Under the pieces are notes generated by a model. That model saw only the letters and a program-made list of their open reading frames with translations. It was not told where the DNA came from and ran no database searches. Below, piece after piece: positions 1,306 through 20,101 of a stretch of DNA of 64,000 nt (positions are counted from its first letter, which is position 1; every line of letters begins with the position of its first letter). A program made the translations under genes and the position numbers. Source of the DNA: a virus; IMG/VR virus record IMGVR_UViG_3300032050_000122. One strand, 5' to 3'.

Positions 1306-2577
1306 TTACTTGGGAGCGGGAATCTGCATCATCATGTTGGGCGGCGTAGTACCCATGTAGTAGACAGGGTAACGGCCATCCCATTTTTCGTTCTGGACTT
1401 TCTGCAACTCAAGTTGCTTGAGTTGCACATACGCGGCCATGTTCTCTTTAGCCTTTTCGATTTCGTAGAACTTGGCATCAGCGAGCATCTTGATGCCGTC
1501 GGCTTCGGCCTTCTTGGTTTTCAAGATGGCATCTGCCTCACCTTGCGCCTTGAGAATCACAGCCTTGTTTGCTTCTTCTTGAGCTTTGGTCTTGCTGATC
1601 GCGATGTCCTTCTCTTGTTCAGCGTTATACACGGCAACCATCTTCTGGGAGATGGTGGGGTTCTTATACACGAAACCACCGGTAATACCGATGTTCGTGA
1701 TATTGATTCCCTTGGCCGCAAAGGTTTCTTTCACACCTTTGATGACCTTGCTGATGTGAGGCGTCGCAGATTTGCGAAGCGTTTCCATCGGAAGGTCCGT
1801 CACTTCAAGGCCGAAATCGGCCTGCACCTTGGCGCGAATTTCACTGTCCATAATTTGGGCCAGCGAACCATTGCGGTAGTTGTGCAGGAACTTGACCGCA
1901 GCATCACGGTCGTCGATTTTGGCCGTGACAGTCCAGCCAGTGCTGAACTCGATCGAGTCCGCGGTCATGACCCAAATCGCTTCATCCTTGCCGCCGGTGC
2001 CGCTATTCTTGTCGGCAGTCCATTCGCGAGTGACGGGAGCAATATCCACGACAATGAGCGTGGCCGCATCGTGCCACTTGCCGTTCGGACCCAGCCACTC
2101 ACGACCCGTCGCGATCCACTGTTGCGGAATCCGAACCTGCTTGGCGAACACGAGGTTCTTCTTGAGAAACTCTTCGTTGTTCGCAGCTTGTTGCTGAGCC
2201 GCATCGCCCTGGTACGGAATCAGGAACGCCTCTTCATGGCTGTTGATTTCCTTGTTGATCACTGGCTCGATAGGCCGGAGACAGCCTGTCGTACACAGAA
2301 GCAGCAGAGCACAGGTCGCGGTGAAGCTTTTCACCAACAACTTCTTGATGTCACCGTACAGAATCATTGCGATCACTCCGAGAACAAGTAGCCAACCTCC
2401 GCCGTATGCGAACTCCCGCATCTGCTGGTTGGTCACGGTTTCTTCCACGGCCTTTGCGTTGTTGATTTGTTTCGCGGCCGCGTTCGTTCGCTCGTATTGT
2501 GTACTCTGAAAGTACACAGCCCAAGCAACGCCATAGCCGATGAGCAACAACGCACAGACAATCAAACGAGACAACAT
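1306..2577 (-). CDS. SPFH/band-7 (prohibitin/flotillin/HflC-like) membrane protein
   Basis: 423 aa with N-terminal TM helix and a C-terminal Ala/Glu/Lys-rich coiled-coil (KAQEEANKAVILKAQGEADAIL...) typical of the SPFH family. Confidence 0.75.
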   Translation of the reverse strand: MLSRLIVCALLLIGYGVAWAVYFQSTQYERTNAAAKQINNAKAVEETVTNQQMREFAYGGGWLLVLGVIAMILYGDIKKLLVKSFTATCALLLLCTTGCLRPIEPVINKEINSHEEAFLIPYQGDAAQQQAANNEEFLKKNLVFAKQVRIPQQWIATGREWLGPNGKWHDAATLIVVDIAPVTREWTADKNSGTGGKDEAIWVMTADSIEFSTGWTVTAKIDDRDAAVKFLHNYRNGSLAQIMDSEIRAKVQADFGLEVTDLPMETLRKSATPHISKVIKGVKETFAAKGINITNIGITGGFVYKNPTISQKMVAVYNAEQEKDIAISKTKAQEEANKAVILKAQGEADAILKTKKAEADGIKMLADAKFYEIEKAKENMAAYVQLKQLELQKVQNEKWDGRYPVYYMGTTPPNMMMQIPAPK

Positions 2578-3014: not shown

Positions 3015-4094
3015 TCACTGTTGAAACTTTCGGTGGTACCGTGCTTCCTTCGGGATACCGTCATCGGTGAGTTCACGGTAACGGAACGTAACCTGACTCC
3101 CCCTTGGAAACAATGGATTGTTAATCCAGTCAGGAACTTCTTTCTCTGGGTTGCAAATTGCCCACTCTTTGGCATAGACGATATTCTTGCCTTTGAGTTC
3201 ACGCTCGGCATCTGTGAACCCTGACAATTCGAGTCTTTTCCCGTTGAAGTTCGTAATCAGGGCACCCATCTTGCCGAGCAGTTTGCTGCCCTTATCGGTC
3301 TCTCGGCCAGTTGTGTAGCCCGTAACGATTGCTTCCGCATCATTGAAGTCTTTCACCTTCAAGATGTTGTAGCTACGTTTCGGTTCCCAACTTGCCGATG
3401 GCTTGCGAAGCATGATGCCTTCGCCGCCCTGGTCAACAACAGAATCCAACAACCGATTCAACTCGGTTACTGCGGCTGGCGTCGAAAACGGCATACGCCA
3501 CTGTGTATGTACTTGAAGATTTTCGGTGATCTTCAAGTTGCTACACAGATAGTTATGAACTTCTTCATACGATGACAACGGCGGCATGATTCCTGTGAAG
3601 TTTGCTTGCCACCAAGGGTAGCAACCTCGCAGAAACACCTTGTACGCTTGTACCGAGATGTCGCCATCTTGGAACAAAGAGTATGGCCAAGGCATGTCAA
3701 ACACCATGTATCTGACATTTCGCCAGCCCGAACCAGGGTTATGATCCTTGACCGTGGCTTGATTCGTCTGGAAGTTTCCACGACCAGACCACAATTCGCC
3801 ATCCAAACAAAAGTTTGGAAGTTGGTCAAGAAACCAATCCGGAGCGTAGATCACGTTACCATAACGTGACCACAGACCCGTGGCAATCACTTCGTTGACA
3901 CGAATGTGATCCTTCTCGGTGTTGGCATACGGAACTTGAGACGCGGGTTTACCACGACTTGCTCCGCCGTCCCAAAAAGCCCGCATACCATCTAATTTTT
4001 CGCTAGCAAACCAGCCAGCCGGCGAGTGCTTCTTCGGATCGTAAACATGAGCAAGTTGAACGTACTCACGTTTCAAAAGATTACGACTGGCCAT
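3015..4094 (-). CDS. ATP-dependent DNA ligase (phage T7/Chlorella-virus-type nucleotidyltransferase)
   Basis: 359 aa with motif I KLDGMRA (KxDGxR), motif III FCLDGELW, motif IV EGIMLRK and motif V LKVK. Confidence 0.8.
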   Translation of the reverse strand: MASRNLLKREYVQLAHVYDPKKHSPAGWFASEKLDGMRAFWDGGASRGKPASQVPYANTEKDHIRVNEVIATGLWSRYGNVIYAPDWFLDQLPNFCLDGELWSGRGNFQTNQATVKDHNPGSGWRNVRYMVFDMPWPYSLFQDGDISVQAYKVFLRGCYPWWQANFTGIMPPLSSYEEVHNYLCSNLKITENLQVHTQWRMPFSTPAAVTELNRLLDSVVDQGGEGIMLRKPSASWEPKRSYNILKVKDFNDAEAIVTGYTTGRETDKGSKLLGKMGALITNFNGKRLELSGFTDAERELKGKNIVYAKEWAICNPEKEVPDWINNPLFPRGSQVTFRYRELTDDGIPKEARYHRKFQQ

Positions 4095-4332: not shown

Positions 4333-5154
4333 TTAGATGTTTGAAGGTTTTTCATCGGATTCCATATGCCAAGGGCAACTAAAACTGCCGGCGTGCTTGT
4401 GGCCACCGCCGCCGAATCGGGTACAGATTTCGCTAACGTCCATGCCGTTGGGATCGGAACGCAGCGAGTAGCAGAAACGCTTCTCTTTGTCCTTGTTCCA
4501 CCAGACGATTGCGAAAGGTTTGCCCTTTGCAAGTTCGCCGCCGATTTCCGATTGCAGGACGGTGGAGTTCACCATCGGAACTTTGTGACCCTCAAACTCG
4601 ATCTCGGTTGCCTGACTTACAGCTTTTTGAATCAGTTTCTCTTGGTACCGAAGGATTGATAAGCCTTGCGATGTACATAGAGTATGCCCTAGCTTGGTCA
4701 GCATTTCGCAATTGGCCATGCTAAAAGCATAAGACTGGATGCACGCATCGATCTCTTTGGACCGTGGAAGTTCCCATTTCCACAAATCACGGTCTTGGAT
4801 ATAAGGCAGAATCCACGGTGCTTCAAGGGTTGGATTGTAATATTCCCATGTGAGCATAGCACCGCACTTGTCAACGTCGTAGACATACTCAAACGGGTAC
4901 GACGGTACGAACCCTTCCATTTTGATTCTGGAAGATTTGTGGTGGTCGAGGATTTTGAGGGATTTATATTTGGCAGATTCCAGAGTCGCCCGATCAGGAC
5001 AGTAATCGACGCAAATTACGTCGTGGCCATCCAATGAGGGAATGCTGGTTTGGTAATAGACTGGAACCAAATCTGCTGTCAAATTGTGGAGATGAGCGTA
5101 ATAGGCCGCGAAGATTCCGTCGGCACAATTAGCATGGTAAAGGATGGTCGTCAT
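4333..5154 (-). CDS. DHH/DHHA1 family phosphoesterase (NrnA/RecJ-like)
   Basis: 273 aa with YHANCADG (motif I), ILDHHKS (DHH motif III) and the C-terminal DHHA1 signature FGGGGHKHA. Confidence 0.8.
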   Translation of the reverse strand: MTTILYHANCADGIFAAYYAHLHNLTADLVPVYYQTSIPSLDGHDVICVDYCPDRATLESAKYKSLKILDHHKSSRIKMEGFVPSYPFEYVYDVDKCGAMLTWEYYNPTLEAPWILPYIQDRDLWKWELPRSKEIDACIQSYAFSMANCEMLTKLGHTLCTSQGLSILRYQEKLIQKAVSQATEIEFEGHKVPMVNSTVLQSEIGGELAKGKPFAIVWWNKDKEKRFCYSLRSDPNGMDVSEICTRFGGGGHKHAGSFSCPWHMESDEKPSNI

Positions 5155-5164
5155 TTCTTTGTCC

Positions 5165-5590
5165 TTAAGAAAGTTGAACTTCGATGATCTTATCGCTGTT
5201 GTTCAGCGTGGCCGGAAACGCTTTTCCGACATGCTTTGGAAAGTTTTTCGGGGCACGAGTACAGGTAATCAGTAGACCACCTTTGTACGCCGGAGCCATT
5301 CGATACGCTGCATCCGAGGCAGCAGTCGTTGCCGGTCTTTGAAAGCCGATCTTTAATCGAGTCTTATCAAAGAAAACATTCACCGCTTCTTTCGGCTTGT
5401 AACCAAAAATCTCGGCAAAAGCCTTATTGCATTGTAGTCCATTTTTGAGAATGGCAACCATCGGCCGCTCTGCCCAAGCTGCTCCATACTTTGCAACACC
5501 TGATTGGAAGTTTCTCGAATTCGAACTTTGCATTTCCCAAGCCATGATGCGTTCCTTTAAGTAAAAGGTTACTCTTATACCGCCGGCCAA
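5165..5590 (-). CDS. hypothetical protein
   Basis: 141 aa ORF, no recognisable motif. Confidence 0.4.
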   Translation of the reverse strand: MAGGIRVTFYLKERIMAWEMQSSNSRNFQSGVAKYGAAWAERPMVAILKNGLQCNKAFAEIFGYKPKEAVNVFFDKTRLKIGFQRPATTAASDAAYRMAPAYKGGLLITCTRAPKNFPKHVGKAFPATLNNSDKIIEVQLS

Positions 5591-5616
5591 ACTGGACGGC
5601 GGTCAAAGGGGAACCC

Positions 5617-7053
5617 TTACATATACTCGCGTGCCCGAATGAAGTCGATGATTGCCTCGCTCCATCCACTGATGTGGACGAACTTGTTGTAGCCGATTCC
5701 ATTCTCATTGCAACTGATGTTGATGAGATAGTTGGAATCACCGAAGGCGTTTGCCTGAGACGGATCGAGCTTGCTGCCAGGAGTCTGGCAATCTTGCTCG
5801 TCCGTGATGACGATGACGCGGTCAGCCGTTCGCTGTTCCTGATAGACATAGTCCATGACTTGTTTCAGGAAGATGCCACCAGTACCGATTTGGTGCTGGA
5901 GTTGCAACTCACTGAACAGTCGAGACAACTCGAAACCACGCCGAGCCGGAATCTGCATCGTTGCATGACGCCGTGCCGAATCGCTACCGGCGGTAGCATA
6001 GATGACCGGATTTTCGGCGATCTCTTTGACGAGAATCGCCAACGCACCAGCGGCATCAAGACGCGACAGGTCGCTCTTGGCCGAGACCTTGCCCTGAGTC
6101 ATGGACCCCGAGGAATCCACGATCAGAACCGTCTTGCCGGGGAGCTTCGGAATCGTTTGGAGACAGCGAAGCATCATGTCTTCGATCATGTTCTGCCATG
6201 CCGGAACCGCACGGTAAGCCGCGATGAACCGGAAGGGAAGCACACGACCCAAATCAACATGCTTCGAGTACTCGACGACGAGTTCCTTGGCCACGCCGCT
6301 CTGTTCCATGTTGCGGAGATTCCGCAGGAACGCCAACGCACCGAGCTTGCCCTCTCTCATCAGACGCGTGAACGTCTCGCACTTGTCGGCTCCCGCAGAA
6401 AGCTCAACTTCCCAAGTATCGGGAGTCTTGAGAGTGCCTTCTGCCAACTTGTGGTAGAGGGAATCGGTGTGTCGTAGCAGGGACTTGGAGTGACCGTCTT
6501 TGTAAGTACGGTGCTTGATGGTGGCGGGGCCAACGTCAGCCGGTTTCGGATGACAGAGGAACATGGCGTCCCGGAGTTTGACCGCTCCATCACGATTATA
6601 CTTAGCCAAGGCGTACTCATTGAAGTTCCCGAAGGCTTTCGCCAGTCCTTTCTTGACTTGGGCAGAAATCGGGCACTTGCCATCTTTCCAGTAGATGGCA
6701 AGGAATTCTGCCAACTCGTCAGCACGCTGGATGATTTCCGGGAGCAGGTCTTTCACCAGTCCCTTGTGGCTATCCAGCCGAGCCATTTCACGTGCAATCA
6801 ACAACGGTACGTGCCGCAGTTTCTGATTCGTTCGGGCGTCGATCGCCATGTTCGCGACCTTCTGCGGATCGACCTGTTTGATGAGGCTCGCAATCCGCTT
6901 GGCGATCTTCTCGCCAGTTTCGTAGAACGTGTCTTCCCACAACATGCACGCCATCACGGATCGCCGAAGTTGTTCTTCGGGACTGACGTTGCTGGCGATT
7001 GCTCCGCCGTGGGTACGCTTGACAAGCTTGGGTGCCTTCACATTCGTCTTCAT
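5617..7053 (-). CDS. rsr: Ro60/Rsr ortholog (TROVE domain plus vWA domain)
   Basis: TROVE-like N-terminal region (HGGAIASN..., LRDAMFLCHPKP resembling the Ro60 LRLSHpKP motif) and C-terminal vWA domain with the Ro60-type MIDAS LIVDSSGSM. Start chosen at MKTNVKAP because of the strong RBS (AGGAGAgcatcATG); the ORF track extends to 7170. Confidence 0.75.
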   Translation of the reverse strand: MKTNVKAPKLVKRTHGGAIASNVSPEEQLRRSVMACMLWEDTFYETGEKIAKRIASLIKQVDPQKVANMAIDARTNQKLRHVPLLIAREMARLDSHKGLVKDLLPEIIQRADELAEFLAIYWKDGKCPISAQVKKGLAKAFGNFNEYALAKYNRDGAVKLRDAMFLCHPKPADVGPATIKHRTYKDGHSKSLLRHTDSLYHKLAEGTLKTPDTWEVELSAGADKCETFTRLMREGKLGALAFLRNLRNMEQSGVAKELVVEYSKHVDLGRVLPFRFIAAYRAVPAWQNMIEDMMLRCLQTIPKLPGKTVLIVDSSGSMTQGKVSAKSDLSRLDAAGALAILVKEIAENPVIYATAGSDSARRHATMQIPARRGFELSRLFSELQLQHQIGTGGIFLKQVMDYVYQEQRTADRVIVITDEQDCQTPGSKLDPSQANAFGDSNYLINISCNENGIGYNKFVHISGWSEAIIDFIRAREYM

Positions 7054-7241
7054 GATGCTCTCCTGGGATTGACAAAGCCACAGTTCATTGCGAAGCTCAT
7101 GACTTTTATAGTCCATGCTCCACAATTCCTGACCCATGACACTTATGGGTCTAATCATCGCTGCTTCCATTGTCTTATTCTTGTTTCTGCCGGAGTAATT
7201 GCTACTCGACGGCTACCACCGAATTTCTTTGTTAATTCAAT

Positions 7242-7282
7242 CTTCGGCTTGGGTCCACCGATGTAGAACCCAACGCCGAAGA
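7242..7282 (-). other. 13-bp bulged GC-rich hairpin with loop ...ATCGGTGG... between rsr and the upstream gene
   Basis: Minus-strand CTTCGGCGTTGGGT-tctacatcggtgg-ACCCAAGCCGAAG; no U-tract. The loop carries the CGGTGG core of the repeated box A. Confidence 0.4.
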
Positions 7283-7323
7283 TTGCAAAGGCACCTGTCA
7301 CATACAATGCTTCCGGGTGCATG

Positions 7324-7866
7324 TCAACTCCGTGGCAAATGCCAGACTGGGATGTTCGGTGGCAAGTAGCCCGAATAAAAAGCTTCTGCCCCGATCAAAT
7401 CACGCAGGAGTTTTAATGATTGGCGTCTCACTGTGACATAGTAGTAATCACACTGAGCGTCACGAACCGTGTCCCACACTTGGTACAACTGGTCCGTCTC
7501 AACGATTGCTTCACGTATCACATCCGCGTGGAACAAGTCTACTTCCAGCCTCTTGTTCAAGTCATTGCGAAATGACCGATTCAATGCCAGAAAGTCATTC
7601 AGTGTTTTACGCGTTGGATACCGGTTACACTCACCCAATTGTGGGTAAGACAGAAACTCTTCATTACGGCCCCTCAGCATCTCAAGATCAGTGTTTGGGT
7701 CTTGAGTGAGTAGGAAGGAATGTTCCCGCGGATCAAGAATCTCGCTATCAAGAGCGAGAGCCAGAATCGTTGGCCGTAATACCTCGATCCATGCAACGTC
7801 AACAGGTGGCGAGTCTTTCGAAGCCGTCAATAAGGCGGCTGCTAAGACAATCTCACAAGTGAACAC
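7324..7866 (-). CDS. hypothetical protein
   Basis: ORF track gives 7324..7908, which runs into tRNA-His. An in-frame GTG at 7866 is preceded by GGAGGG at a 7-nt spacing, giving about 180 aa. Confidence 0.45.
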   Translation of the reverse strand: MFTCEIVLAAALLTASKDSPPVDVAWIEVLRPTILALALDSEILDPREHSFLLTQDPNTDLEMLRGRNEEFLSYPQLGECNRYPTRKTLNDFLALNRSFRNDLNKRLEVDLFHADVIREAIVETDQLYQVWDTVRDAQCDYYYVTVRRQSLKLLRDLIGAEAFYSGYLPPNIPVWHLPRS

Positions 7867-7881
7867 ATAGATACCCTCCAG

Positions 7882-7958
7882 GGTGGTCGACGGGATTTGA
7901 ACCCGCAACCGCCGGAATCACAATCCGGTGCTCTGCCAGTTGAGCTACGACCAACATG
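7882..7958 (-). tRNA. tRNA-His (anticodon GTG)
   Basis: D-arm GCUC-AACUGGCA-GAGC, anticodon loop UUGUGAU, T-arm GCGGG-UUCAAAU-CCCGU, extra 5' G (G-1) opposite C73; one acceptor mismatch. Confidence 0.7.
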
Positions 7959-7993
7959 AATTTGCGGGAACAAGCGGAACGGCTGCTGCCCTT

Positions 7994-8044
7994 TCGGGCG
8001 ATCAAACCATCTTTGAAGTAACCGTTTCCTAACGCCACGCAAAC
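7994..8044 (-). promoter_or_regulatory. repeat unit copy 1 (box A 8015-8044 plus box-B-like 7994-8006) upstream of tRNA-His
   Basis: Minus strand GCGTGGCGTTaggaaaCGGTTACTTC then GGTTTGATCGCCCGAAAG; member of the repeat family at 8.0-11.6 kb. Confidence 0.5.
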
Positions 8045-8159
8045 ATTAAAGTGGGGAACAATCGCTGTAGTTAGCCGGTATCGAGCCGGCACCCTTGCGG
8101 GTTTCAAACCAAGAAGTAGCTACAACTATCACCACCACAAGAAGCATTAGAGGGATAAT

Positions 8160-8280
8160 AATCGACAACAGGGGTTGGTCTTTTGCTCTACCCACTGAGC
8201 TACAATCCATCCCGAGGGACTTCATGGCGGGATTCGAACCCACGACCTAAAGAAGTAACTGTTATCTACGCCACTCTAAT
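8160..8280 (-). ncRNA. candidate YrlA-like ncRNA: box A, then T-arm, hairpin and D-arm (permuted tRNA-like module), then closing stem and box-B-like
   Basis: Minus strand GAGTGGCGTAGATAACAGTTACTTC (8276-8252); T-arm GUGGG-UUCGAAU-CCCGC (8243-8227); hairpin GUCC-cucg-GGAU; GGAUUGUA plus D-arm GCUC-AGUGGGUA-GAGC (8200-8185); CUGUU (8171-8167) pairs with the AACAG of box A. No anticodon arm and no matching acceptor 3' strand. Confidence 0.45.
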
Positions 8281-8364
8281 AAGGTGCCGACGGCAGGATT
8301 CAAAATGGAGAGCCTGCGAAACAGGATCGTATCACCTGTGGTTAACCGCACAGATTACCACCCC

Positions 8365-8387
8365 GCTAAAGGGTGTGGCCACACCCC
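8365..8387 (-). terminator. possible weak terminator hairpin after the kinase gene
   Basis: Perfect palindrome GGGTGTGGCCACACCC followed by only UUU on the minus strand. Confidence 0.3.
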
Positions 8388-8409
8388 GTCCGCGTTCGTC
8401 GGCCTGATT

Positions 8410-8847
8410 TCATGCTAAGAACACTTCTTGATTCCAATAGGAAGGAACAATTTGTTCTTGAAGGTTCTTATGCATTGCCAAAATTGTGTTGACCGGTACC
8501 TTGTGCGTATTTCTACGCATTGCACGACTAACCGGACACATGTGGTACTTGATCACGTAATCGTGGCCTAATGCTTGAGCGATTCTGACATATGGAGCTA
8601 GTTCCATGAGAGTTGTGTTTGTGTTATCCACAATAAAAAGTGGACAGCGTTTCTCAACGAAGACCGCCGAGATGTAACAACGCAAACACCAATCATGAGC
8701 CTCACCCGCACGCTTAGGGTCGTACTGGTAAATACCATTGACTGTGTGAAAGTCATCAGCCGAGAAGATTTCACAATCTTCACCAGCATAGTTCTTCACA
8801 TAAGTTGATTTACCTGACCCAGGCAATCCTCGCATGATCCAGATCAT
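8410..8847 (-). CDS. P-loop kinase (polynucleotide kinase-like, AAA_33 type)
   Basis: 145 aa starting MIWIMRGLPGSGKSTYVKNY (Walker A) and resembling the T4 Pnk kinase domain N-terminus; RBS AAGGAAAG precedes the ATG. Confidence 0.65.
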   Translation of the reverse strand: MIWIMRGLPGSGKSTYVKNYAGEDCEIFSADDFHTVNGIYQYDPKRAGEAHDWCLRCYISAVFVEKRCPLFIVDNTNTTLMELAPYVRIAQALGHDYVIKYHMCPVSRAMRRNTHKVPVNTILAMHKNLQEQIVPSYWNQEVFLA

Positions 8848-8934
8848 GGTCTTTCCTTAAAAAGTTAATTGGTCCAGAGCCTTCACGGTAACACACCGTG
8901 GCCTGCCCAGCTTAAGCACTCTGGACCAAAAGGT

Positions 8935-9000
8935 ATCGGGGATTAAATCGGTCACAGCTTTTTCTAAGCATGAAGTAACCGTGACCAACGCCACCGAAAG
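8935..9000 (-). promoter_or_regulatory. repeat unit copy 3 (box B 8935-8948, hairpin, box A 8972-9000) upstream of the kinase gene
   Basis: Minus strand CTTTCGGTGGCGTTGGTCACGGTTACTTC ... GCTGTGACCG ATTTAATCCCCGAT; the GGTCAC/GTGACC stem covaries with other copies. Confidence 0.55.
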
Positions 9001-9004
9001 TTTG

Positions 9005-9265
9005 TTACTTGGGCTTCCACTCTTCGGGAATCTTTTCCTTGTCGTTGAAGATGTTGCCCATTCGAATCTTCCAGTCTTCACCTTCGGGAAGACCAGCATG
9101 GCGATACATGGTATCACCCACCATACGCCAAACTCCTGCCTGGGATTCCGGCGGCACGTAAGCCGCTCGTTGCATGATTTGTTTCAAGTCGTTGGCCAAC
9201 GCGACTTCCGTCGGCGGCAGAACTTCTTGAATGACAAACTTCACCAATCGATCAAGGTCTCGCAT
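9005..9265 (-). CDS. hypothetical protein
   Basis: 86 aa; RBS AAGGAAAAG upstream of ATG at 9265. Confidence 0.5.
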   Translation of the reverse strand: MRDLDRLVKFVIQEVLPPTEVALANDLKQIMQRAAYVPPESQAGVWRMVGDTMYRHAGLPEGEDWKIRMGNIFNDKEKIPEEWKPK

Positions 9266-9284
9266 GATTCTTTTCCTTAATAAG

Positions 9285-9402
9285 AGCGGGGATTAAACGA
9301 AATCAGTATTTAGTCCCACACTTGCGGGTTTACGGCCCGTAGTTGTGGGGCTTCTCCGGTCATGGTGGGGAAGTAACTGATCTCAAACGCCACCGCAAAA
9401 AG
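9285..9402 (-). promoter_or_regulatory. repeat unit copy 4 (box A 9370-9402, long structured loop, box B 9285-9298)
   Basis: Minus strand GCGGTGGCGTTTGAGATCAGTTACTTC ... ACTGAT ... GTTTAATCCCCGCTC; ATCAGT/ACTGAT stem. Confidence 0.5.
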
Positions 9403-9403
9403 A

Positions 9404-9682
9404 TCACTTCGTGGGAATCGGCTCAAGCGGACTCGTCGCCAAATGAATGGCAACGTGGTGAATCTTGTTGGTTTCTTTGTCAATGACCCACGACTCCTGC
9501 TCCTGGTAGAACCGATTCAGTTCGAAGATCGCTTCGATCGATTCGAGCCACCACCAAGAGGTTTCGCCTTCGTCGGCAACACCGATCAACCAGCGTGCAT
9601 CGGCGGGCTTACGCCCCACGAATCCTGACACGCGGGAAATTCCTTTGTAAACGACGTTGTCGTATTTCGTTTGCATGTTCAT
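9404..9682 (-). CDS. hypothetical protein
   Basis: Start moved to MNMQTKYD (ATG at 9682) because the longer ORF would run through the upstream repeat unit; RBS AAGGAAatgaacATG. Confidence 0.5.
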   Translation of the reverse strand: MNMQTKYDNVVYKGISRVSGFVGRKPADARWLIGVADEGETSWWWLESIEAIFELNRFYQEQESWVIDKETNKIHHVAIHLATSPLEPIPTK

Positions 9683-9697
9683 TTCCTTAAAAGAAGT

Positions 9698-9763
9698 ATC
9701 GGGGATTAAACGCTTAGGGTTGGCACTTTTAACAGAAGTATCCCTTAGCATACGCCACCGATG
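9698..9763 (-). promoter_or_regulatory. repeat unit copy 5 (box A 9735-9763, hairpin GCTAAGGG/CCCTAAGC, box B 9698-9711)
   Basis: Minus strand CATCGGTGGCGTATGCTAAGGGATACTTC tgttaaaagtgccaa CCCTAAGC GTTTAATCCCCGAT, then RBS and ATG. Confidence 0.55.
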
Positions 9764-9912
9764 ATTGTGAGCCTGGACTGCCATTCATTTATTTAACGCC
9801 CCGGTCCTGGCACCTGGTGCGTCTAACTCTGACGTTCCCATGTAACGCCACGCGAGTGTTGGGTTTTGCTAACCATAAGTGACCACACCAACAGGCCACC
9901 CTTCGATTCCTC

Positions 9913-10161
9913 CTAGAGTTGACCAGCGAGGTACAACAAAGCCGCCTTGAACGCCGCTCGATTGCTGCCGGGCGTCTTGGGAATTTCGTCCATCTTGTTT
10001 GTCATCTCTTTGTAGAGACGGGTCTGTTCGACATCCATCTCTTCGTGAGTCGCGTTCGGTTTCGATTCATACAACTGAAAGAACGTGACGATGGCACTGA
10101 GCGTTTTCAACTGCTGAGCCATCTCTAGGGACAGCGTCAGAATCAAAAGTTCCTTGAGCAT
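9913..10161 (-). CDS. hypothetical protein
   Basis: 82 aa; RBS AAGGAAAtgtctcATG. Confidence 0.5.
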   Translation of the reverse strand: MLKELLILTLSLEMAQQLKTLSAIVTFFQLYESKPNATHEEMDVEQTRLYKEMTNKMDEIPKTPGSNRAAFKAALLYLAGQL

Positions 10162-10188
10162 GAGACATTTCCTTTCGAGAAAGAATGG

Positions 10189-10347
10189 TTAAGGTTCAAC
10201 TGATGCGATGACCCATGACGATAGGACATCAAGGATTCTGTCGGCTTCGTCTTCCGACGTTTCTTGTCCAACGGTTTCCCATTCACCGTGAACAAAGACT
10301 TCAATATGCCAGTTGCCAGAATCGTCGTCCAATCGTTTTCGAATCAT
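10189..10347 (-). CDS. hypothetical small protein
   Basis: Start at MIRKRLDD (GGAG RBS) rather than 10401, which would overlap the upstream repeat unit; 52 aa. Confidence 0.4.
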   Translation of the reverse strand: MIRKRLDDDSGNWHIEVFVHGEWETVGQETSEDEADRILDVLSSWVIASVEP

Positions 10348-10423
10348 CTTGAAACTCCAAAACAGGGGCAAGTAACTAGCGTCAGAACCCCGATGACCCA
10401 ATTACCTACCCCTGTGATTCAAA

Positions 10424-10492
10424 ATCGGGGATTGTTCGCTACGGCTTTTCGTGCAAAGGTAGAAGTAACCGTAGCAATCGCCACCGAAAAAG
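10424..10492 (-). promoter_or_regulatory. repeat unit copy 6 (box A 10462-10492, hairpin GCTACGG/CCGTAGC, box B 10424-10437)
   Basis: Minus strand CTTTTTCGGTGGCGATTGCTACGGTTACTTC ... CCGTAGC GAACAATCCCCGAT. Confidence 0.55.
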
Positions 10493-10628
10493 CATGTACT
10501 CACGTTATCTGTTATTCTCTTCGACCTTCGGCATCATGCGTACTTTCCGAGTCAGACCACGCCGTGAGTACAACCCCATCCTCAAAAGGCAGGGGCGGGC
10601 CAGATGGGGACGGAACCCTTCTCCAGCA

Positions 10629-10838
10629 TCAGGCCGACTTTGCAGTCAGCTTATCCATGTACTTGGCCTTGTTCACGACGCCCCGACGAATCGAAGCGAG
10701 AACTTGGTTGGCACGTTTGACATGCCGTTCCGTGTACGTCTTACCGGCGAACTTCTCGGCGATGACACCTGCATCAAGCAGGGCACCGTCTTTGTCTCGA
10801 CCGAACTTGCTGACATTGGCTTTCGTGATGTTAATCAT
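10629..10838 (-). CDS. hypothetical protein
   Basis: Likely starts at MINITKANV (69 aa). The longer 10629..11003 frame overlaps a better-supported gene in another frame. Confidence 0.35.
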   Translation of the reverse strand: MINITKANVSKFGRDKDGALLDAGVIAEKFAGKTYTERHVKRANQVLASIRRGVVNKAKYMDKLTAKSA

Positions 10839-10872
10839 GGTTAGTGATTCCAATGAGTGTTGGGAAACGGGT

Positions 10873-11124
10873 TTAGGACGCCAGAAGATACACGCCGCGA
10901 GGCTTGTCGAAGACGATGGTCGCGATGACCACTGACTCCTCAACCTCGATGCCTTCGTCATTTTTGACCATTCGATTTTCCTTGACAACCTGTTGGTCGC
11001 CAAAGGCTTTCTTCACATTGGCCCGTCGTTCCGTGACGGCCCGACCGCGACCCGGCCAGATTCCACGAAGGGTAGCTTGACCGTGCTTGCGGCACTTGTC
11101 GATCAGAACTTGCACTTCATTCAT
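10873..11124 (-). CDS. hypothetical protein
   Basis: 83 aa; strong RBS AAGGAAAGtttcATG. Confidence 0.5.
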   Translation of the reverse strand: MNEVQVLIDKCRKHGQATLRGIWPGRGRAVTERRANVKKAFGDQQVVKENRMVKNDEGIEVEESVVIATIVFDKPRGVYLLAS

Positions 11125-11153
11125 GAAACTTTCCTTAAGTAAAGGGACCAGTG

Positions 11154-11221
11154 GGGGCCCGAGGATTTGAACCTCATCTCTGAGTTAAACTCAGGCTCTG
11201 CCAAGTTAAGCTAAAGCCCCA
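11154..11221 (-). tRNA. tRNA with atypical anticodon arm (possible anticodon UUA; or a 5-nt loop)
   Basis: D-arm GCUU-AACUUGGC-AGAGC and T-arm UGAGG-UUCAAAU-CCUCG. Anticodon arm CUGA-GUUUAAC-UCAG gives UUA with a 4-bp stem; the alternative is a 5-bp stem with loop UUUAA. Acceptor has a mismatch and GU pairs. Confidence 0.45.
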
Positions 11222-11224
11222 AAT

Positions 11225-11293
11225 CGGGGAACAAACGATTACGGGGTCACATCAACCAAAAGAAGTACCCGCAATCAAACGCCACCGAAAGCA
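11225..11293 (-). promoter_or_regulatory. repeat unit copy 7 (box A 11264-11293, hairpin GATTGCGGG/CCCCGTAATC, box B 11225-11238) upstream of the UUA tRNA
   Basis: Minus strand CTTTCGGTGGCGTTTGATTGCGGGTACTTC ... CCCCGTAATC GTTTGTTCCCCGAT. Confidence 0.5.
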
Positions 11294-11366
11294 CGACCGG
11301 GTGGAATCGAACCACCAACCTACGGTTTTGGAGACCGTCGCTCTGCCAATTGAGCTACTAGCCGCG
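11294..11366 (-). tRNA. tRNA-Trp (anticodon CCA), acceptor stem does not pair as read
   Basis: D-arm GCUC-AAUUGGCA-GAGC, anticodon arm ACGGU-CUCCAAA-ACCGU, T-arm GGUGG-UUCGAUU-CCACC. The 5' CGGCUAG and 3' CGGUCGU are not complementary, so this may be a pseudo-tRNA or I have misread the boundaries. Confidence 0.5.
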
Positions 11367-11374
11367 TTGTGTCC

Positions 11375-11492
11375 GGGATTAAGTCGAATCAGTATAGCAT
11401 CCTACCATTAGACGACGAAGGCAAGCCCTCGGTGGGATTCGAACCCACATCTCTTCTTTGACATAGAAGTAACCGATTCTAAACGCCACGGA
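11375..11492 (-). ncRNA. candidate YrlA-like ncRNA: box A, then T-arm, closed acceptor-like hairpin and D-arm, then stem and box B
   Basis: Minus strand CCGTGGCGTTTAGAATCGGTTACTTC (11492-11468); T-arm GUGGG-UUCGAAU-CCCAC (11450-11434); hairpin CGAGG-gcuugc-CUUCG; UC; D-arm GUCU-AAUGGU-AGGA (11415-11402); GAUUC pairs with the GAAUC of box A; TTAATCCCGG (11386-11375). Confidence 0.45.
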
Positions 11493-11567
11493 ACTAAGAA
11501 CCAGGGATTAACTGAGTCGGTGCCGCTGTTGCCAAATCTTGCGGCCTCAACACCCTTGCGGATGCTG

Positions 11568-11637
11568 ACAGGATTCGAACCTGCAATTACTTATGAAGTA
11601 TCCGATTCAATCGCCACTGGTAAGTTGTCAGACGATC
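11568..11637 (-). ncRNA. tRNA-like element: acceptor-like stem, box A in place of the D and anticodon arms, and a T-arm
   Basis: Minus strand CUGACAAcuuacCAGUGGCGAUUGAAUCGGAUACUUCauaaguaauuGCAGG-UUCGAAU-CCUGUCAG; box-B-like TTAATCCCTGG at 11514-11503. Confidence 0.35.
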
Positions 11638-11831
11638 ACCACGAGCAGGCCGAGCAGGAACGCGATTTCGTCGGGATGTTCATTCACCACGACGCATTCC
11701 AAATCGGAGTCGACATCGATTCGAGTCCGATTCCCATACTCATCGTCCGCCGGAAGTGGGACCAGAGCGAGGATCATTTCCGGACGAAGCCAAATCGAGT
11801 GGCCAGTCATCGTGCAAGTCAGACGAATCAT
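11628..11831 (-). CDS. hypothetical protein
   Basis: 67 aa, RBS AAGGAA; its 3' end overlaps the tRNA-like element. Confidence 0.35.
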   Translation of the reverse strand: MIRLTCTMTGHSIWLRPEMILALVPLPADDEYGNRTRIDVDSDLECVVVNEHPDEIAFLLGLLVVIV

Positions 11832-11854
11832 GCTGCGTTCCTTAAATGGAGGGT

Positions 11855-12181
11855 TCAGATCAACTCAAGCAGGAACTCTACAGTAAGTTCCAGCCGGTTA
11901 ATCCATTCTTTTGCTTCCGCGAGTTCCTGACACTTTCGCGTCAGTTCCGAATCGTACCCTTCGGGCCGATCCGCAAGTGCTTTCTTGAGCTTATCTCGAA
12001 GATGGCTCAGTTGTTTGGTTTGCATCGCAATGCCTTCATCGCGACGAGCAATCATCTCTTCCATCCGGTTGATTTGAAGCTGACGATCGGTGAGCTTCAT
12101 CATGTGATTCTTGAGCCGCTGACGCATACCCTCAAGAGCCTTAGCTTGGTTCAAAATCACAAGATCATCGGCTGCACTCAT
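11855..12181 (-). CDS. hypothetical coiled-coil protein
   Basis: 108 aa, heptad-rich. Confidence 0.45.
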   Translation of the reverse strand: MSAADDLVILNQAKALEGMRQRLKNHMMKLTDRQLQINRMEEMIARRDEGIAMQTKQLSHLRDKLKKALADRPEGYDSELTRKCQELAEAKEWINRLELTVEFLLELI

Positions 12182-12387
12182 TTGAGCATCTCATAAGTGT
12201 CACCCGCTACAGCAACGGGTATGTGGCGGAGAACCTCGTTCGGGTCCATATCGTTGGCTGCACAACGATTAACAGCGGCGTCAAGGTCGGTCATGATTCC
12301 CCAGGGAGTCACAATCCAAACCGCAAACGAGGTAATCGGAATCGGCCGACCAGTCAACGTGACTGTCTTTGCAACAAGGTCGATCAT
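12178..12387 (-). CDS. hypothetical protein
   Basis: 69 aa, 4-nt overlaps with both neighbours. Confidence 0.45.
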   Translation of the reverse strand: MIDLVAKTVTLTGRPIPITSFAVWIVTPWGIMTDLDAAVNRCAANDMDPNEVLRHIPVAVAGDTYEMLK

Positions 12388-12758
12388 AGGATCAGTTGTC
12401 CTGTTCGGTTGTTGACGGCAATCTTGATTTCACCGTCGAGTTTGGGTGTACCAATCGGGGCGTACGATTCATCCCCTGCGTTGTGTAGCGTGGCACCTGT
12501 CATGGCATCCTTACCTACGACCTCAGTGGGATCAATTACCTTTTTGCCCGGCAAGTATTTGTCAGGGCCACCCTTCTTCATGATTCCACCAAAGCAGGAC
12601 ATGCAGACTTCATAGCCAAAGCCGTCCTTACCACGTTTGAGAATCTTGTAGGGCTTGTCCTTTAAGGACTTGTTGCACATCTTGTTGGCACAACGTCCCT
12701 TACTTTTTGGCGGCTTGAGACTGATTAGCAAGGCGATCCCTCCGTTTTTGTGTTCCAC
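12384..12758 (-). CDS. hypothetical protein (Cys-rich, possible zinc binding)
   Basis: 124 aa with CxxxC...CxxC. Confidence 0.45.
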   Translation of the reverse strand: MEHKNGGIALLISLKPPKSKGRCANKMCNKSLKDKPYKILKRGKDGFGYEVCMSCFGGIMKKGGPDKYLPGKKVIDPTEVVGKDAMTGATLHNAGDESYAPIGTPKLDGEIKIAVNNRTGQLIL

Positions 12759-14363: not shown

Positions 14364-14377
14364 GATTTTGGTGTCCT

Positions 14378-14662
14378 TCAAGAGTGAAATTTTGTGGAAA
14401 GAAATTCGGCGATGGCTTGCTCTAAAGCAGCCATTCGTGATTCGTTGCTAATATGGCTGGCGGTGACTTCTTCACCATTATCGTGGATGAAGATTCCCAC
14501 CGCCGCCCATTTCCGTATGACCGCTTCCATGCTACTCCTTGTTGGAAATCGCATTGCGAAGACCAGCAGCAGCGGCAGCAGCGAGCAGGCTTTGGAAACC
14601 GGCTTCAATCTGTCCGATACTGAACTGATAAACGGCAAGGCCAACGAGACCTGCCACCGCAA
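14378..14662 (-). CDS. hypothetical protein
   Basis: 94 aa ORF. Confidence 0.35.
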   Translation of the reverse strand: MRWQVSLALPFISSVSDRLKPVSKACSLLPLLLVFAMRFPTRSSMEAVIRKWAAVGIFIHDNGEEVTASHISNESRMAALEQAIAEFLSTKFHS

Positions 14663-19870: not shown

Positions 19871-19944
19871 GATACACCTTGTATGGCGGTCCCCAGGCCA
19901 TTCTCCCTCGCACGGGAGAATTTGTGCGAAGACCCAGGGACCAT

Positions 19945-20015
19945 TAGACTCAGAAGGATTCGAACCCTCTCTAACGGGTCCAACGCCCGTTGTGCTACCG
20001 TTACACTATGAGTCA
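19945..20015 (-). tRNA. tRNA-Gln (anticodon TTG), noncanonical G33
   Basis: D-arm GUGU-AACGGUA-GCAC, anticodon arm ACGGG-CGUUGGA-CCCGU, T-arm GAGGG-UUCGAAU-CCUUC, acceptor GACUCA/UGAGUC with U1-U72 mispair. Confidence 0.5.
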
Positions 20016-20101
20016 ACGTACCCGCTTGGGTGGTCTGCTCTGCGTTCGCAGTCGTTCCACGCACCCTAGACGCTACGGCACTCTGCCAAGCGGGCTTACA
20101 A

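What the first reader, a model, noticed from the sequence alone, without database searches (positions are those of the whole stretch)
5617..7170. Phage-encoded Ro60/Rsr ortholog with the Ro-type MIDAS motif DSSGSM
The C-terminal vWA domain carries LIVDSSGSM, matching the Ro60 DxSGSM MIDAS. The N-terminal region has TROVE-like segments including LRDAMFLCHPKP (compare Ro60 LRLSHpKP). Ro60/Rsr proteins act in ncRNA quality control with Y RNAs. Here the gene lies about 1 kb from tRNA-like candidate RNAs and near RNA-repair-type enzymes (kinase, ligases, phosphoesterase).
Basis: partly seen in the sequence, partly recalled or inferred. Interest (0 to 1): 0.7.

Follow-up and report, generated by a model that had tools for sequence, protein, structure and literature searches.

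The report
Phage Ro60 gene with Y-RNA array
A tailed phage carries a gene for a Ro60-type RNA-binding ring protein, and directly upstream of it lie ten small "Y RNA"-like genes, an unusually large set of the partner RNAs known for this protein family; phage Ro60 genes themselves are already known.

Summary
ORF 5617-7170(-) is real. Its likely start is the ATG at 7053, giving 478 aa.

The protein belongs to the Ro60/TROVE family:
- Pfam TROVE scores above its gathering cutoff.
- PHROG 850 matches at 1e-38.
- It aligns over its full length to the solved Ro60 of Thermus phage phiLo.
- For an AlphaFold model (pLDDT 85), the 13 best PDB matches are all Ro60 rings.

It is not an Rsr equivalog (28 bits against a cutoff of 900). 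The MIDAS threonine is not conserved.

The larger result lies upstream. Ten Y-RNA-like units sit on the same strand between 7960 and 11621, packed against tRNA-His, tRNA-Trp and a tRNA-like element. All ten share a constant handle: a basal helix with a bulged U, GGCGWW, an 8-bp helix, UUACUUC, and a 3' loop ending in CCC. Their heads vary, and two carry YrlA-type T and D arms.

The same motif lies upstream of Ro60 in about 40 other viral loci. All 78 covariance-model hits are on the Ro60 strand, and covariation is strong.

The RNA-repair context is weak: neighbour synteny holds only in close relatives.

Phage Ro60 with Y RNAs is a known kind of system. The new element is the array size (10 here, 12 in a relative) and a handle signature that matched no Rfam family in the region searched.

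The parts
5617..7053 (-). Ro60/TROVE-family protein gene, 478 aa from the SD-preceded ATG (the ORF as listed extends to 7170)
6148..7053 (-). HEAT-repeat (TROVE) ring portion, about residues 1-302. Includes KK134-135, R161 and HPKP 168-171, which align with the phiLo Ro60 RNA-contact residues K141/K142, R169 and R178
   Evidence: phmmer alignment read against the mutagenesis in PMC12135203; clade invariants; secondary structure
5659..6147 (-). vWA domain, about residues 303-465, closing the ring. DSSGSM at 6100-6117; TDEQD begins at residue 417
   Evidence: Pfam VWA_2 and vWA_Ro60 below cutoff; alternating strands and helices in the model; fold matches; coordinates
7960..8044 (-). Y-like unit u1; head is a GAAA-tetraloop hairpin; ends 5 nt before tRNA-His
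   Evidence: R1 27.1 bits; MFE shows a basal helix with bulged U
8051..8138 (-). Y-like unit u2; head is a GCAA hairpin plus a T-arm-like hairpin
   Evidence: Scanner; MFE
8146..8280 (-). Y-like unit u3, YrlA type: T arm, closed acceptor-like hairpin and D arm in permuted order
   Evidence: Rfam YrlA 36 bits, E 4e-5, full model length
8936..8997 (-). Y-like unit u4, minimal 62-nt form
   Evidence: R1 43.6 bits, E 8e-11; MFE z = -4.0
9286..9396 (-). Y-like unit u5, with a long structured head
   Evidence: MFE z = -3.1
9698..9762 (-). Y-like unit u9, minimal form with AUACUUC
   Evidence: R1 31.8 bits
10425..10487 (-). Y-like unit u6, minimal form
   Evidence: R1 37 bits
11224..11288 (-). Y-like unit u8, minimal form; 2 nt after tRNA-Trp and 3 nt before the tRNA-like element
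   Evidence: R1 34.3 bits
11372..11492 (-). Y-like unit u7, with T arm, 6-bp acceptor-like hairpin and D-arm-like hairpin; ends 6 nt before tRNA-Trp
   Evidence: Rfam tRNA 25 bits on its head
11500..11621 (-). Y-like unit u10, with AUACUUC, a T arm, a GCAA hairpin and one further hairpin
   Evidence: MFE z = -3.2
7881..7954 (-). tRNA-His (GTG), last RNA gene of the array
11291..11365 (-). tRNA-Trp (CCA), between u7 and u8
11153..11220 (-). tRNA-like element with a 5-nt anticodon loop, directly after u8
   Evidence: Rfam tRNA 34.7 bits; not called by ARAGORN; sequence

Best explanation
The gene encodes a phage Ro60: a closed ring of HEAT repeats (the TROVE domain) capped by a vWA domain. It is the downstream protein gene of a minus-strand region that also carries ten Y-RNA-like genes, two tRNAs and one tRNA-like element.

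Each Y-like RNA has a constant 'handle'. From the outside in, this is a basal helix holding a bulged U (N..G-U-GG paired with CCC..N), an asymmetric internal loop (5' CGWW; 3' side typically GYUUGUU, here mostly with AAU or UAU before CCC), a 7-8 bp helix of free sequence, and then UUACUUC. Each also has a variable 'head': YrlA-type T and D arms, a T arm alone, GNRA hairpins or a plain loop.

Inferred mechanism:
1. The array is transcribed with the flanking small ORFs. There is no room for promoters between a stop codon and the next unit, and spacers to the tRNAs are only 2-7 nt.
2. The transcript is cut into units by tRNA-processing and other host nucleases.
3. The handle, whose 5' strand GGCGWW is a variant of the GNCGAA motif of bacterial Y RNAs, docks on the basic outer face of the ring.
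4. The different heads tether or block different partners. Host PNPase is the best-documented candidate.
5. The phage thereby re-tunes decay or surveillance of structured RNA during infection.

Shown here: family membership and fold of the protein; the existence, structure, strand and linkage of the RNA units. Inferred only: expression, processing, binding, partners and benefit to the phage.
For: Protein:
- Pfam TROVE scores above its cutoff, and PHROG 850 'RNA-binding protein' matches at 1e-38.
- Full-length alignment to phiLo Ro60 gives E 2e-26; the family profile gives 1.7e-44.
- The AF2 model has pLDDT 84.9. Its top 13 Foldseek PDB hits are all Ro60, with TM 0.56-0.72 over about 490-575 aligned columns.
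- KK134-135, R161 and K170 align with the phiLo residues K141/K142, R169 and R178. Mutating those residues weakens Yrl2 binding.

RNA:
- GTTACTTC occurs 8 times in the window against 1.45 expected. Six copies lie on the minus strand within 8015-11473.
- Ten units have the same layout and different helix sequences.
- Every unit folds on its own into the basal helix with the bulged U plus the middle helix.
- On 46 units from other loci, 89.6% of cells are paired against 60% in shuffles (0 of 500 shuffles reach it) and 45-53% when partners are slid. The basal-helix pairs, which were not used for selection, show GC, CG, AU and UA.
- A structure-aware scanner finds 111 units in 1.72 Mb and 0 in the reversed sequences.

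Linkage:
- The covariance model gives 78 hits at E <= 0.001 in 43 Ro60 loci. All are on the Ro60 strand, and nearly all lie within 5 kb upstream.
- Among 120 motif-seeded loci, full units and Ro60 co-occur 24 times, against 5 and 6 discordant loci and 85 with neither. All 54 units are on the Ro60 strand.
- Units also lie in the unannotated gaps upstream of the TROVE gene of the cultured phages Tenjo, CcrColossus and Kabachok.

Precedent:
- YrlA RNAs lie within 4 kb of Ro60 on the same strand in 254 bacteria and 22 phages. They carry GNCGAAN0-1G and YUAY motifs. M. smegmatis YrlA and YrlB are cut from one precursor (PMC4201824).
- phiLo Ro60 binds Yrl1 and Yrl2 and, with them, host PNPase (PMC12135203).
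Against: - There are no expression data. No promoter or terminator was assignable; promoter-like sites are not enriched.
- None of the ten units has the strict GNCGAA; they read GGCG followed by UU, UA or AU.
- The Rfam YrlA hit is below gathering (36 against 69 bits), and that model also gives 31-34 bit hits on tandem tRNAs.
- Only 4 of the 8 basic residues tested in phiLo Ro60 are conserved (R137, R163 and R173 are not; K193 could not be placed in the alignment), and the MIDAS Thr is not.
- The phiLo Yrl RNAs, the only phage Y RNAs with binding data, do not match this handle.
- The middle helix was a selection criterion for the units counted, so only the basal helix is an unbiased test.
Confidence: 0.82

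Rival explanations
1. The repeated units are cis-acting parts of the operon mRNA rather than free Y RNAs. They would be leaders, processing sites or Ro60 operator sites that set the stability or translation of the small ORFs that follow them.
For: In the window, several units sit 9 nt after a stop codon. They end roughly 13-25 nt (u5, u9) to about 80 nt (u4, u6) before a UAAGGAAA-type ribosome-binding site and ATG. No flanking promoters or terminators were found.
Against: In L135, six units follow each other with 1-2 nt spacers and no ORFs. In L122, nine units fill 1.5 kb directly before Ro60. Units abut tRNAs with 2-7 nt spacers, like co-processed stable RNAs. Two units carry complete YrlA-type tRNA-like heads. 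The intervening ORFs are conserved only in the closest relative.
Confidence: 0.08
2. The Ro60 and Y-RNA set is one arm of an RNA-repair pathway, working with the neighbouring kinase, phosphoesterase and ligases. This would parallel the Salmonella rsr-yrlBA-rtcBA operon and would serve to mend phage or host tRNAs cut by defence nucleases.
For: An AAA_33/PNK-like kinase sits inside the array, a DHH phosphoesterase lies two genes downstream, and an RNA ligase (PF09414) lies 13 kb away beside tRNA-Gln. DHH recurs near Ro60 in 5 loci. Jumbo-phage surveys place TROVE among RNA-repair genes (PMC7824862).
Against: The kinase has no match in any fetched locus, including the 93%-identical relative, so it is a recent insertion. 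The adjacent ligase is an ATP-dependent DNA ligase. No RtcB, RtcA or Rnl gene lies next to Ro60. The RNA ligase has no match in any Ro60 locus fetched with up to 8 kb of flank on each side.
Confidence: 0.15
3. The protein mainly acts as a counter-defence factor, as proposed for the Ro60-like gp130 of phage Bas63 against the Ppl system. The RNAs would be cofactors or decoys.
For: The PhageMaP preprint reports that deleting the Ro60-like g130 sensitises Bas63 to Ppl, and that the gene lies directly upstream of a run of annotated tRNA genes (PMC11482910). The phiLo authors propose interference with host PNPase. The window has a non-decoding tRNA-like element in the array.
Against: No defence or anti-defence family matched (PADLOC). 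The host is unknown. The idea is not exclusive of the main explanation and concerns the benefit rather than the molecular mechanism.
Confidence: 0.2
4. The protein is a generic vWA/MIDAS protein whose N-terminal part is unrelated to Ro60.
For: The vWA Pfam models score below their cutoffs, and identity to cellular Ro60 is only 15-18%.
Against: TROVE scores above its cutoff, and sequence and fold matches to four solved Ro60 proteins run over the full length. The next-best folds are isolated vWA domains with TM 0.23.
Confidence: 0.01

Closest known systems
phiRo60 with Yrl1/Yrl2 of Thermus phage phiLo (PDB 9KOP, 9L5Y; PMC12135203)
   Same: It is the best sequence and fold match (E 2e-26, TM 0.70). 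Both are phage-encoded and have the HEAT ring plus vWA with DxSGS and a distal Asp. In both, small stem-bulge-stem RNAs are encoded just upstream on the same strand. Four of the mutated RNA-contact residues are conserved.
   Different: Identity is only about 22%. phiLo has two reported RNAs; this window has ten. The phiLo RNAs carry CGAA and do not match this handle model upstream of the gene. The MIDAS Thr is present in phiLo and absent here.
YrlA/YrlB Y RNAs next to Rsr in bacteria, mycobacteriophages and CcrColossus (Rfam RF02553; PMC4201824)
   Same: The RNAs lie on the same strand, mostly within 4 kb of Ro60 (u7, u8 and u10 lie 4.2-4.6 kb upstream). The 5' motif is a variant of GNCGAAN0-1G, and YUAY (UUAC) follows the helix. 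u3 and u7 have T arm, acceptor-like hairpin and D arm in permuted order. Several RNAs are cut from one precursor in M. smegmatis. CcrColossus units match the model built here.
   Different: All units are below the Rfam gathering score. The motif reads GGCG(U/A)(U/A), not CGAA. Eight of the ten units lack a full tRNA-like domain. Copy number is 10-12, against about 1.3 per genome in the 2014 survey (355 RNAs in 276 genomes).
D. radiodurans Rsr-Yrn1-PNPase (RYPER) and metazoan Ro60-Y RNA
   Same: Same ring fold (2NVO, 1YVP and 9NEN all match). The RNA ends pair into a helix with a bulged nucleotide next to a conserved 5'-strand motif.
   Different: Protein identity is 15-18%. The protein is not an Rsr equivalog. 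No PNPase link was tested here.
Bas63 gp130 (Ro60-like, counters Ppl; PMC11482910)
   Same: It is a phage Ro60-like protein encoded beside a run of tRNA-type genes.
   Different: The relationship rests on the preprint's structural comparison. No sequence comparison was made here, and no defence link was found for this window.

Membership tests
Ro60 / TROVE (Pfam PF05731; solved Ro60 structures) | TROVE domain at or above Pfam's gathering score | tested here: met
   52.6 bits against a cutoff of 23, E 5.7e-14. Nearly all of the 120 listed homologues carry PF05731.
Ro60 / TROVE (Pfam PF05731; solved Ro60 structures) | Full-length ring of HEAT repeats closed by a vWA domain | tested here: met
   AF2 model with pLDDT 84.9. 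The top 13 PDB matches are phiLo, D. radiodurans, Xenopus and human Ro60, with TM 0.56-0.72 over about 490-575 aligned columns.
Ro60 / TROVE (Pfam PF05731; solved Ro60 structures) | Complete MIDAS (DxSxS, Thr, Asp) in the vWA domain | tested here: inconclusive
   D313, S315, G316, S317, M318 and D418 are invariant in the clade. The Thr equivalent to phiLo T391 aligns with Ile, and the clade consensus there is GGGGIFL. The Pfam vWA_Ro60 model scores 18.4 bits against 27.7.
Ro60 / TROVE (Pfam PF05731; solved Ro60 structures) | Basic outer-surface residues that contact the Y-RNA stem | tested here: inconclusive
   By alignment against the mutants in PMC12135203: K141, K142, R169 and R178 are conserved as K134, K135, R161 and K170. 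R137, R163 and R173 are not. K193 falls in a gapped stretch and could not be placed.
Ro60 / TROVE (Pfam PF05731; solved Ro60 structures) | Y-type RNA gene(s) nearby on the same strand | tested here: met
   Ten units lie 0.9-4.6 kb upstream on the same strand. The same holds in about 40 related loci.
Ro60 / TROVE (Pfam PF05731; solved Ro60 structures) | Binds Y RNA and misfolded RNA | not testable with these tools
   Needs EMSA or RIP.
Bacterial Rsr equivalog (NCBIfam NF041674) | Score at or above the curated cutoff | tested here: not met
   28 bits against a cutoff of 900; only residues 319-459 match.
PHROG 850 (phage 'RNA-binding protein') | Full-length profile match | tested here: met
   E 1.1e-38; residues 44-512 on profile positions 10-457 of 476.
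YrlA / bacterial Y RNA (Rfam RF02553; Chen et al. 2014) | Rfam gathering score | tested here: not met
   The best hit is u3 at 36 bits against 69. The other units get no YrlA hit at E <= 10.
YrlA / bacterial Y RNA (Rfam RF02553; Chen et al. 2014) | 5' motif GNCGAAN0-1G near the 5' end, in a helix formed with the 3' end | tested here: inconclusive
   All ten units have GG(C/U)G followed by UU, UA or AU and then 0-2 nt before G, so the two A positions differ. Related loci do carry GGCGAAG or GGUGAAG. The helix is supported by covariation.
YrlA / bacterial Y RNA (Rfam RF02553; Chen et al. 2014) | tRNA-like module (T arm, acceptor-like hairpin, D arm) | tested here: met
   Met for u3 and u7. u10 and u2 have a T arm only. 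u1, u4, u5, u6, u8 and u9 have none and are YrlB-like.
YrlA / bacterial Y RNA (Rfam RF02553; Chen et al. 2014) | Same strand as Ro60 and within about 4 kb | tested here: met
   Seven units lie within 4 kb of the start at 7053. u8, u7 and u10 lie at 4.2-4.6 kb. All are on the same strand.

The most novel reading that the evidence does not exclude
This phage lineage carries the largest set of Y-RNA genes seen so far next to one Ro60 gene: 10 here, 12 in L121, 9 in L122. All share one Ro60-docking handle but have different heads. The set would then be a library of adaptors that lets a single ring protein address many partners or targets during infection. The handle (bulged-U helix, GGCGWW, UUACUUC, UUGUUCCC) would define a widespread phage 'mini-Y' RNA class. 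No Rfam family matched it in the region searched, and it is unannotated in deposited phage genomes.
Probability: 0.45. Interest if true: 0.65.

Novelty: new member of a known kind. Interest (0 to 1): 0.45.

Why it matters
What Ro60 and Y RNAs do in bacteria and phages is still largely open. Only a handful of RNAs have been studied, usually one to four per genome.

A phage lineage with ten to twelve Y-like RNAs that differ only in their heads offers a natural experiment on what the variable module is for. The compact handle signature lets such RNAs be found and annotated in phage genomes where they now lie in blank 'intergenic' gaps, including the cultured phages Tenjo, CcrColossus and Kabachok, which can be tested directly.

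For the gene itself the result is ordinary: it is one more phage Ro60.

Tried and rejected
- Near-identity DNA search of the locus against GenBank phages found no match. tblastn of the 1069-aa ORF also found none, so the phage has no close cultured relative.
- MAFFT on whole units failed on the 3' halves because the heads vary from 13 to 80 nt. I replaced the heads with NNNN in equal-length units from other loci.
- Covariance model R1 missed or mis-aligned the window's long-headed units u2, u3, u5, u7 and u10. These rest on a regex-plus-pairing scanner and on single-sequence folds.
- The strict 5' motif scan of IMG/VR is dominated by chance matches in coding DNA: 85 of 120 loci have neither a full unit nor Ro60. 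The raw count of 120 is therefore not a family size.
- PADLOC gave nothing for Ro60 or its neighbours, apart from a weak P-loop hit for the kinase.
- PHROGs gave nothing for ten small ORFs in and around the array.
- The phiLo upstream region does not match the handle model.
- The Annual Review on bacterial Ro60 (PMC10870794) is not held.
- Host identification through cluster names yielded nothing.
Full report
**1. The observation**

The minus-strand ORF 5617..7170 is present and translates to 517 aa. DSSGSM is encoded at 6100-6117 and LRDAMFLCHPKP at 6541-6576.

The likely start is the ATG at 7053-7051. It follows AGGAG at a 6-nt spacing and gives 478 aa, in line with most of the 120 best homologues, which are about 452-483 aa. 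The 7170 start would overlap the upstream 55-aa ORF.

The window is phage DNA. It encodes a tape measure protein, DNA polymerase, helicase, primase and ParB. It carries 12 tRNA genes. Its closest relative is a 111,835-bp IMG/VR viral contig whose Ro60 is 93% identical.

**2. The protein**

Sequence evidence:
- Pfam TROVE scores 52.6 bits against a cutoff of 23. The two vWA models fall just below their cutoffs.
- PHROG 850, 'RNA-binding protein', matches end to end at 1e-38.
- Against the PDB, residues 52-514 align to the Ro60 of Thermus phage phiLo (9L5Y/9KOP) at E 2e-26.
- A profile of 69 family members raises this to 1.7e-44. It also reaches human Ro60 (5e-9), Xenopus Ro60 (1.5e-7) and D. 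radiodurans Rsr (6e-5).

Structure evidence: an AlphaFold2 model built from that alignment has mean pLDDT 84.9. Its 13 best Foldseek matches in the PDB are all Ro60 proteins over their full length, with TM 0.56-0.72. The next matches are isolated vWA domains at TM about 0.23.

Three qualifications:
- It is not an Rsr equivalog. NCBIfam NF041674 gives 28 bits against a cutoff of 900.
- The MIDAS is incomplete by alignment. DxSGSM and the Asp of TDEQD are invariant in the clade. The Thr that coordinates Ca2+ in phiLo Ro60 (T391) aligns with Ile, in a clade consensus of GGGGIFL.
- Only some RNA-contact residues are kept. Of the eight basic residues whose mutation weakens Yrl2 binding in phiLo Ro60, K141, K142, R169 and R178 align with K134, K135, R161 and K170 here. 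R137, R163 and R173 do not. K193 lies in a gapped stretch and could not be placed.

tblastn finds relatives at 41-44% identity in 98 deposited phage genomes: Brevundimonas, Xanthomonas, Ralstonia, Caulobacter, crAss-like, Streptomyces, Gordonia and others. Several are annotated as TROVE or RNA-binding protein.

**3. The RNAs upstream**

Rfam at relaxed threshold reports a YrlA (Y RNA-like) match at 8162-8265(-). It scores 36 bits, E 4e-5, covers the full model length and is below the gathering score of 69.

Reading the strand showed that this element is one of a series. GTTACTTC occurs 8 times in the window against 1.45 expected, and six copies lie on the minus strand within 8015-11473. Ten units share one layout:
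- a basal helix of 3-6 free pairs continuing into G-(bulged U)-GG paired with CCC;
- an internal loop, with 5' CG followed by UU, UA or AU, and a 3' side of GYUUGUU in the wider family but mostly ending AAU or UAU before CCC here;
- a 7-8 bp helix whose sequence differs in every unit;
- UUACUUC (AUACUUC, GUACUUC or CUACUUC in four units);
- a head of 14-80 nt;
- the return strands.

The ten units are:

| Unit | Coordinates (-) |
|---|---|
| u1 | 7960-8044 |
| u2 | 8051-8138 |
| u3 | 8146-8280 |
| u4 | 8936-8997 |
| u5 | 9286-9396 |
| u9 | 9698-9762 |
| u6 | 10425-10487 |
| u8 | 11224-11288 |
| u7 | 11372-11492 |
| u10 | 11500-11621 |

Each unit, folded alone, gives this basal helix with the bulged U plus the middle helix as its minimum-energy structure. 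Folding z-scores for u4, u5, u6, u8, u9 and u10 lie between -2.5 and -4.0.

The heads differ:
- u3 and u7 have a T arm (GUGGGUUCGAAUCCCRC), a closed acceptor-like hairpin and a D arm in that permuted order. This is the YrlA design.
- u10 and u2 have a T-arm-type hairpin plus GCAA hairpins.
- u1 has a GAAA hairpin.
- u4, u6, u8 and u9 are 62-65 nt minimal forms.

**4. Is the RNA family real?**

I collected units from other viral contigs, using a scan for the 5' motif and the flanks of Ro60 homologues. From these I made an equal-length alignment of 46 units from other loci, with the heads masked.

On the proposed structure, 89.6% of cells are paired. Shuffles give 60.3%, and 0 of 500 reach the observed value. 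Sliding the partners gives 45-53%. There are 257 double-sided changes against 99 in shuffles.

The middle helix was a selection criterion, so it is not independent evidence. The basal helix was not selected for. Its three variable inner pairs are paired in 41 to 46 of 46 sequences and use GC, CG, AU and UA.

A stricter scanner that requires both helices finds 111 units in 1.72 Mb of fetched loci and none in the same sequences reversed.

Orthologous units in the 93%-identity relative show compensatory changes. In u5, for example, GAGAUCAG/CUGAUUUC becomes GAAUACGG/CCGUGUUC.

**5. Linkage to Ro60**

- Covariance model R1, built from the 46 units, gives 78 hits at E <= 0.001 in 43 Ro60 loci (585 kb, both strands). 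All are on the Ro60 strand and nearly all lie within 5 kb upstream. This includes loci whose Ro60 is only 29-31% identical. Some hits are training sequences, but most loci contribute new ones.
- Among 120 loci seeded only by the 5' motif, a full unit and a Ro60 gene co-occur in 24. Five have a unit alone, at least one of which is explained by the fetched piece ending short: L014 is a fragment of the Ro60-bearing contig of L122. Six have Ro60 alone, and 85 have neither and are chance matches. All 54 units are on the Ro60 strand, and 50 are upstream.
- The cultured phages Tenjo, CcrColossus and Kabachok have 2-3 R1 hits each in the unannotated gap before their TROVE gene. CcrColossus also has YrlA-type sub-threshold Rfam hits there.

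This meets the criteria used to define bacterial and phage Y RNAs. The signature is a variant of the published one. Chen et al. 2014 describe GNCGAAN0-1G near the 5' end, likened to the GGUCCGA contacted by Xenopus Ro60, and a conserved YUAY. Related loci here do carry GGCGAAG or GGUGAAG. The ten window units carry U at one or both A positions.

**6. Organisation**

Units are separated from each other and from the tRNAs by 2-7 nt. The order is u10, u7, tRNA-Trp, u8, tRNA-like, and later u3, u2, u1, tRNA-His.

Elsewhere, units sit between small ORFs. A unit typically starts about 9 nt after a stop codon. It ends 13 to 80 nt before a UAAGGAAA-type ribosome-binding site.

There is no room for separate promoters, and promoter-like sites are not enriched. 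The simplest reading is one long transcript cut by tRNA-processing and other nucleases. This was shown for YrlA and YrlB of M. smegmatis and is only inferred here.

The ORFs are not an obligatory part of the design. L135 has six units back to back, and L122 has nine in 1.5 kb directly before Ro60. This argues against the units being mRNA leaders.

Copy number is 1-5 in most loci, 9 in L122, 12 in L121 and at least 7 in L169. The 2014 survey listed 355 YrlAs in 276 genomes, and phiLo has two.

**7. The RNA-repair context**

The neighbours are:
- an AAA_33/PNK-like kinase inside the array (8410-8847);
- a DHH phosphoesterase (4333-5154);
- an ATP-dependent DNA ligase (3015-4094);
- an SPFH protein;
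- a dCMP deaminase;
- further away, a second vWA protein (13308-14381) and an RNA ligase (20362-21525).

tblastn of these proteins against all fetched loci shows synteny only in the closest relatives. The kinase and the RNA ligase have no match anywhere, not even in the 93%-identity relative. Only DHH recurs, in five loci. The conserved module is Ro60 plus its upstream RNAs. A repair operon like rsr-yrlBA-rtcBA is not supported.

**8. How it most likely works**

By analogy with solved and tested systems, the handle docks on the basic outer face of the ring. The heads engage other factors, of which host PNPase is the documented case for D. radiodurans and for phiLo. Ten heads on one handle suggest ten specificities.

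The benefit to the phage is not decided by anything here. It could be protecting its RNAs, reshaping decay, or countering a defence as proposed for Bas63 gp130.

**9. Novelty**

Phage Ro60 genes, and Y-like RNAs next to them, have been known since 2003-2014 and have been structurally characterised since 2025. The finding as written is a new member of a known kind.

Two things appear new within the literature I could search. One is the size of the array. The other is a compact, covariation-supported handle shared by minimal units. No Rfam family matched these units at E <= 10 in the 4500-12500 search, and deposited genomes leave them unannotated.

Noticed in passing
window 11153-11220 (-): A tRNA-like element scores 34.7 bits on Rfam tRNA but is not called by ARAGORN. 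It has good acceptor, D and T arms, but its anticodon stem closes a 5-nt loop (UUUAA), so it cannot decode. It lies 3 nt after Y-like unit u8.
   Followed up: partly
window 8410-8847 (-): An AAA_33/polynucleotide-kinase-like gene sits inside the Y-RNA array. It has no tblastn match in any related locus, including the 93%-identity relative L121, where u4 and u3 are only about 250 nt apart. It looks like a recent insertion.
   Followed up: partly
window 8871-8927 (-): A long hairpin (GGUCCAGAG...CUCUGGACC) lies between unit u4 and the kinase gene. It has no Rfam match.
   Followed up: no
window about 9790-9870 (-) and 11664-11699 (-): These look like degenerate remnants of further units (GUGGCGUUACAUGGG; R1 15.8 bits). 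They lie at positions where L121 has intact units (L121 4755-4833 and 3101-3164).
   Followed up: partly
window 13308-14381 (-): A second vWA-domain protein (357 aa) is encoded upstream of the array. It is conserved in L121 (96%), L122 (46%) and L169, and weakly in L125 and L130. It could be a partner of the module.
   Followed up: no
window 20362-21525 (-), beside tRNA-Gln 19944-20016: An RNA ligase (PF09414 with the PHA02142 OB domain) lies 13 kb from Ro60. It is absent from all fetched Ro60 loci.
   Followed up: partly
L170 (Thermus phage phiLo) 3980-4051 (+): A weak handle-model hit (16.8 bits, E 0.001) lies immediately after the phiRo60 stop codon, with GGUACUUC and paired stems. It may be a further Y-like RNA not among the published Yrl1 and Yrl2, which are upstream. 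It overlaps the start of the annotated CDS phiLo_25.
   Followed up: no
L150 6344-6755 (+); L173 (crAss-like cr106_1) 1437-1740 (+): A tmRNA gene lies 1-2.5 kb upstream of the Ro60 gene in two unrelated phages. One is an ARAGORN permuted tmRNA; the other is annotated as SsrA.
   Followed up: no
L135 7423-7976 (+): Six Y-like units lie back to back with 1-2 nt spacers directly before Ro60. This is a pure RNA array without ORFs.
   Followed up: partly
L122 3327-3812 (+): The Rfam YrlA model gives 31-34 bit sub-threshold hits across junctions of tandem tRNA genes (T arm of one, D arm of the next). This false-positive mode should be kept in mind when reading weak YrlA hits.
   Followed up: yes
L168 (CcrColossus) 3215-3282 (+): The record's 'tRNA-Gln' (68 nt) lies in the 1.3-kb gap upstream of the TROVE gene, among Y-like units, and overlaps a YrlA-like hit at 3250-3346. 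It may be the tRNA-like head of a Y RNA rather than a tRNA.
   Followed up: no
window 4333-5154 (-); L121, L122, L124, L125, L146: A DHH phosphoesterase (PHROG 4771) is the only neighbour that recurs near Ro60 beyond the closest relatives. It appears in five loci.
   Followed up: partly
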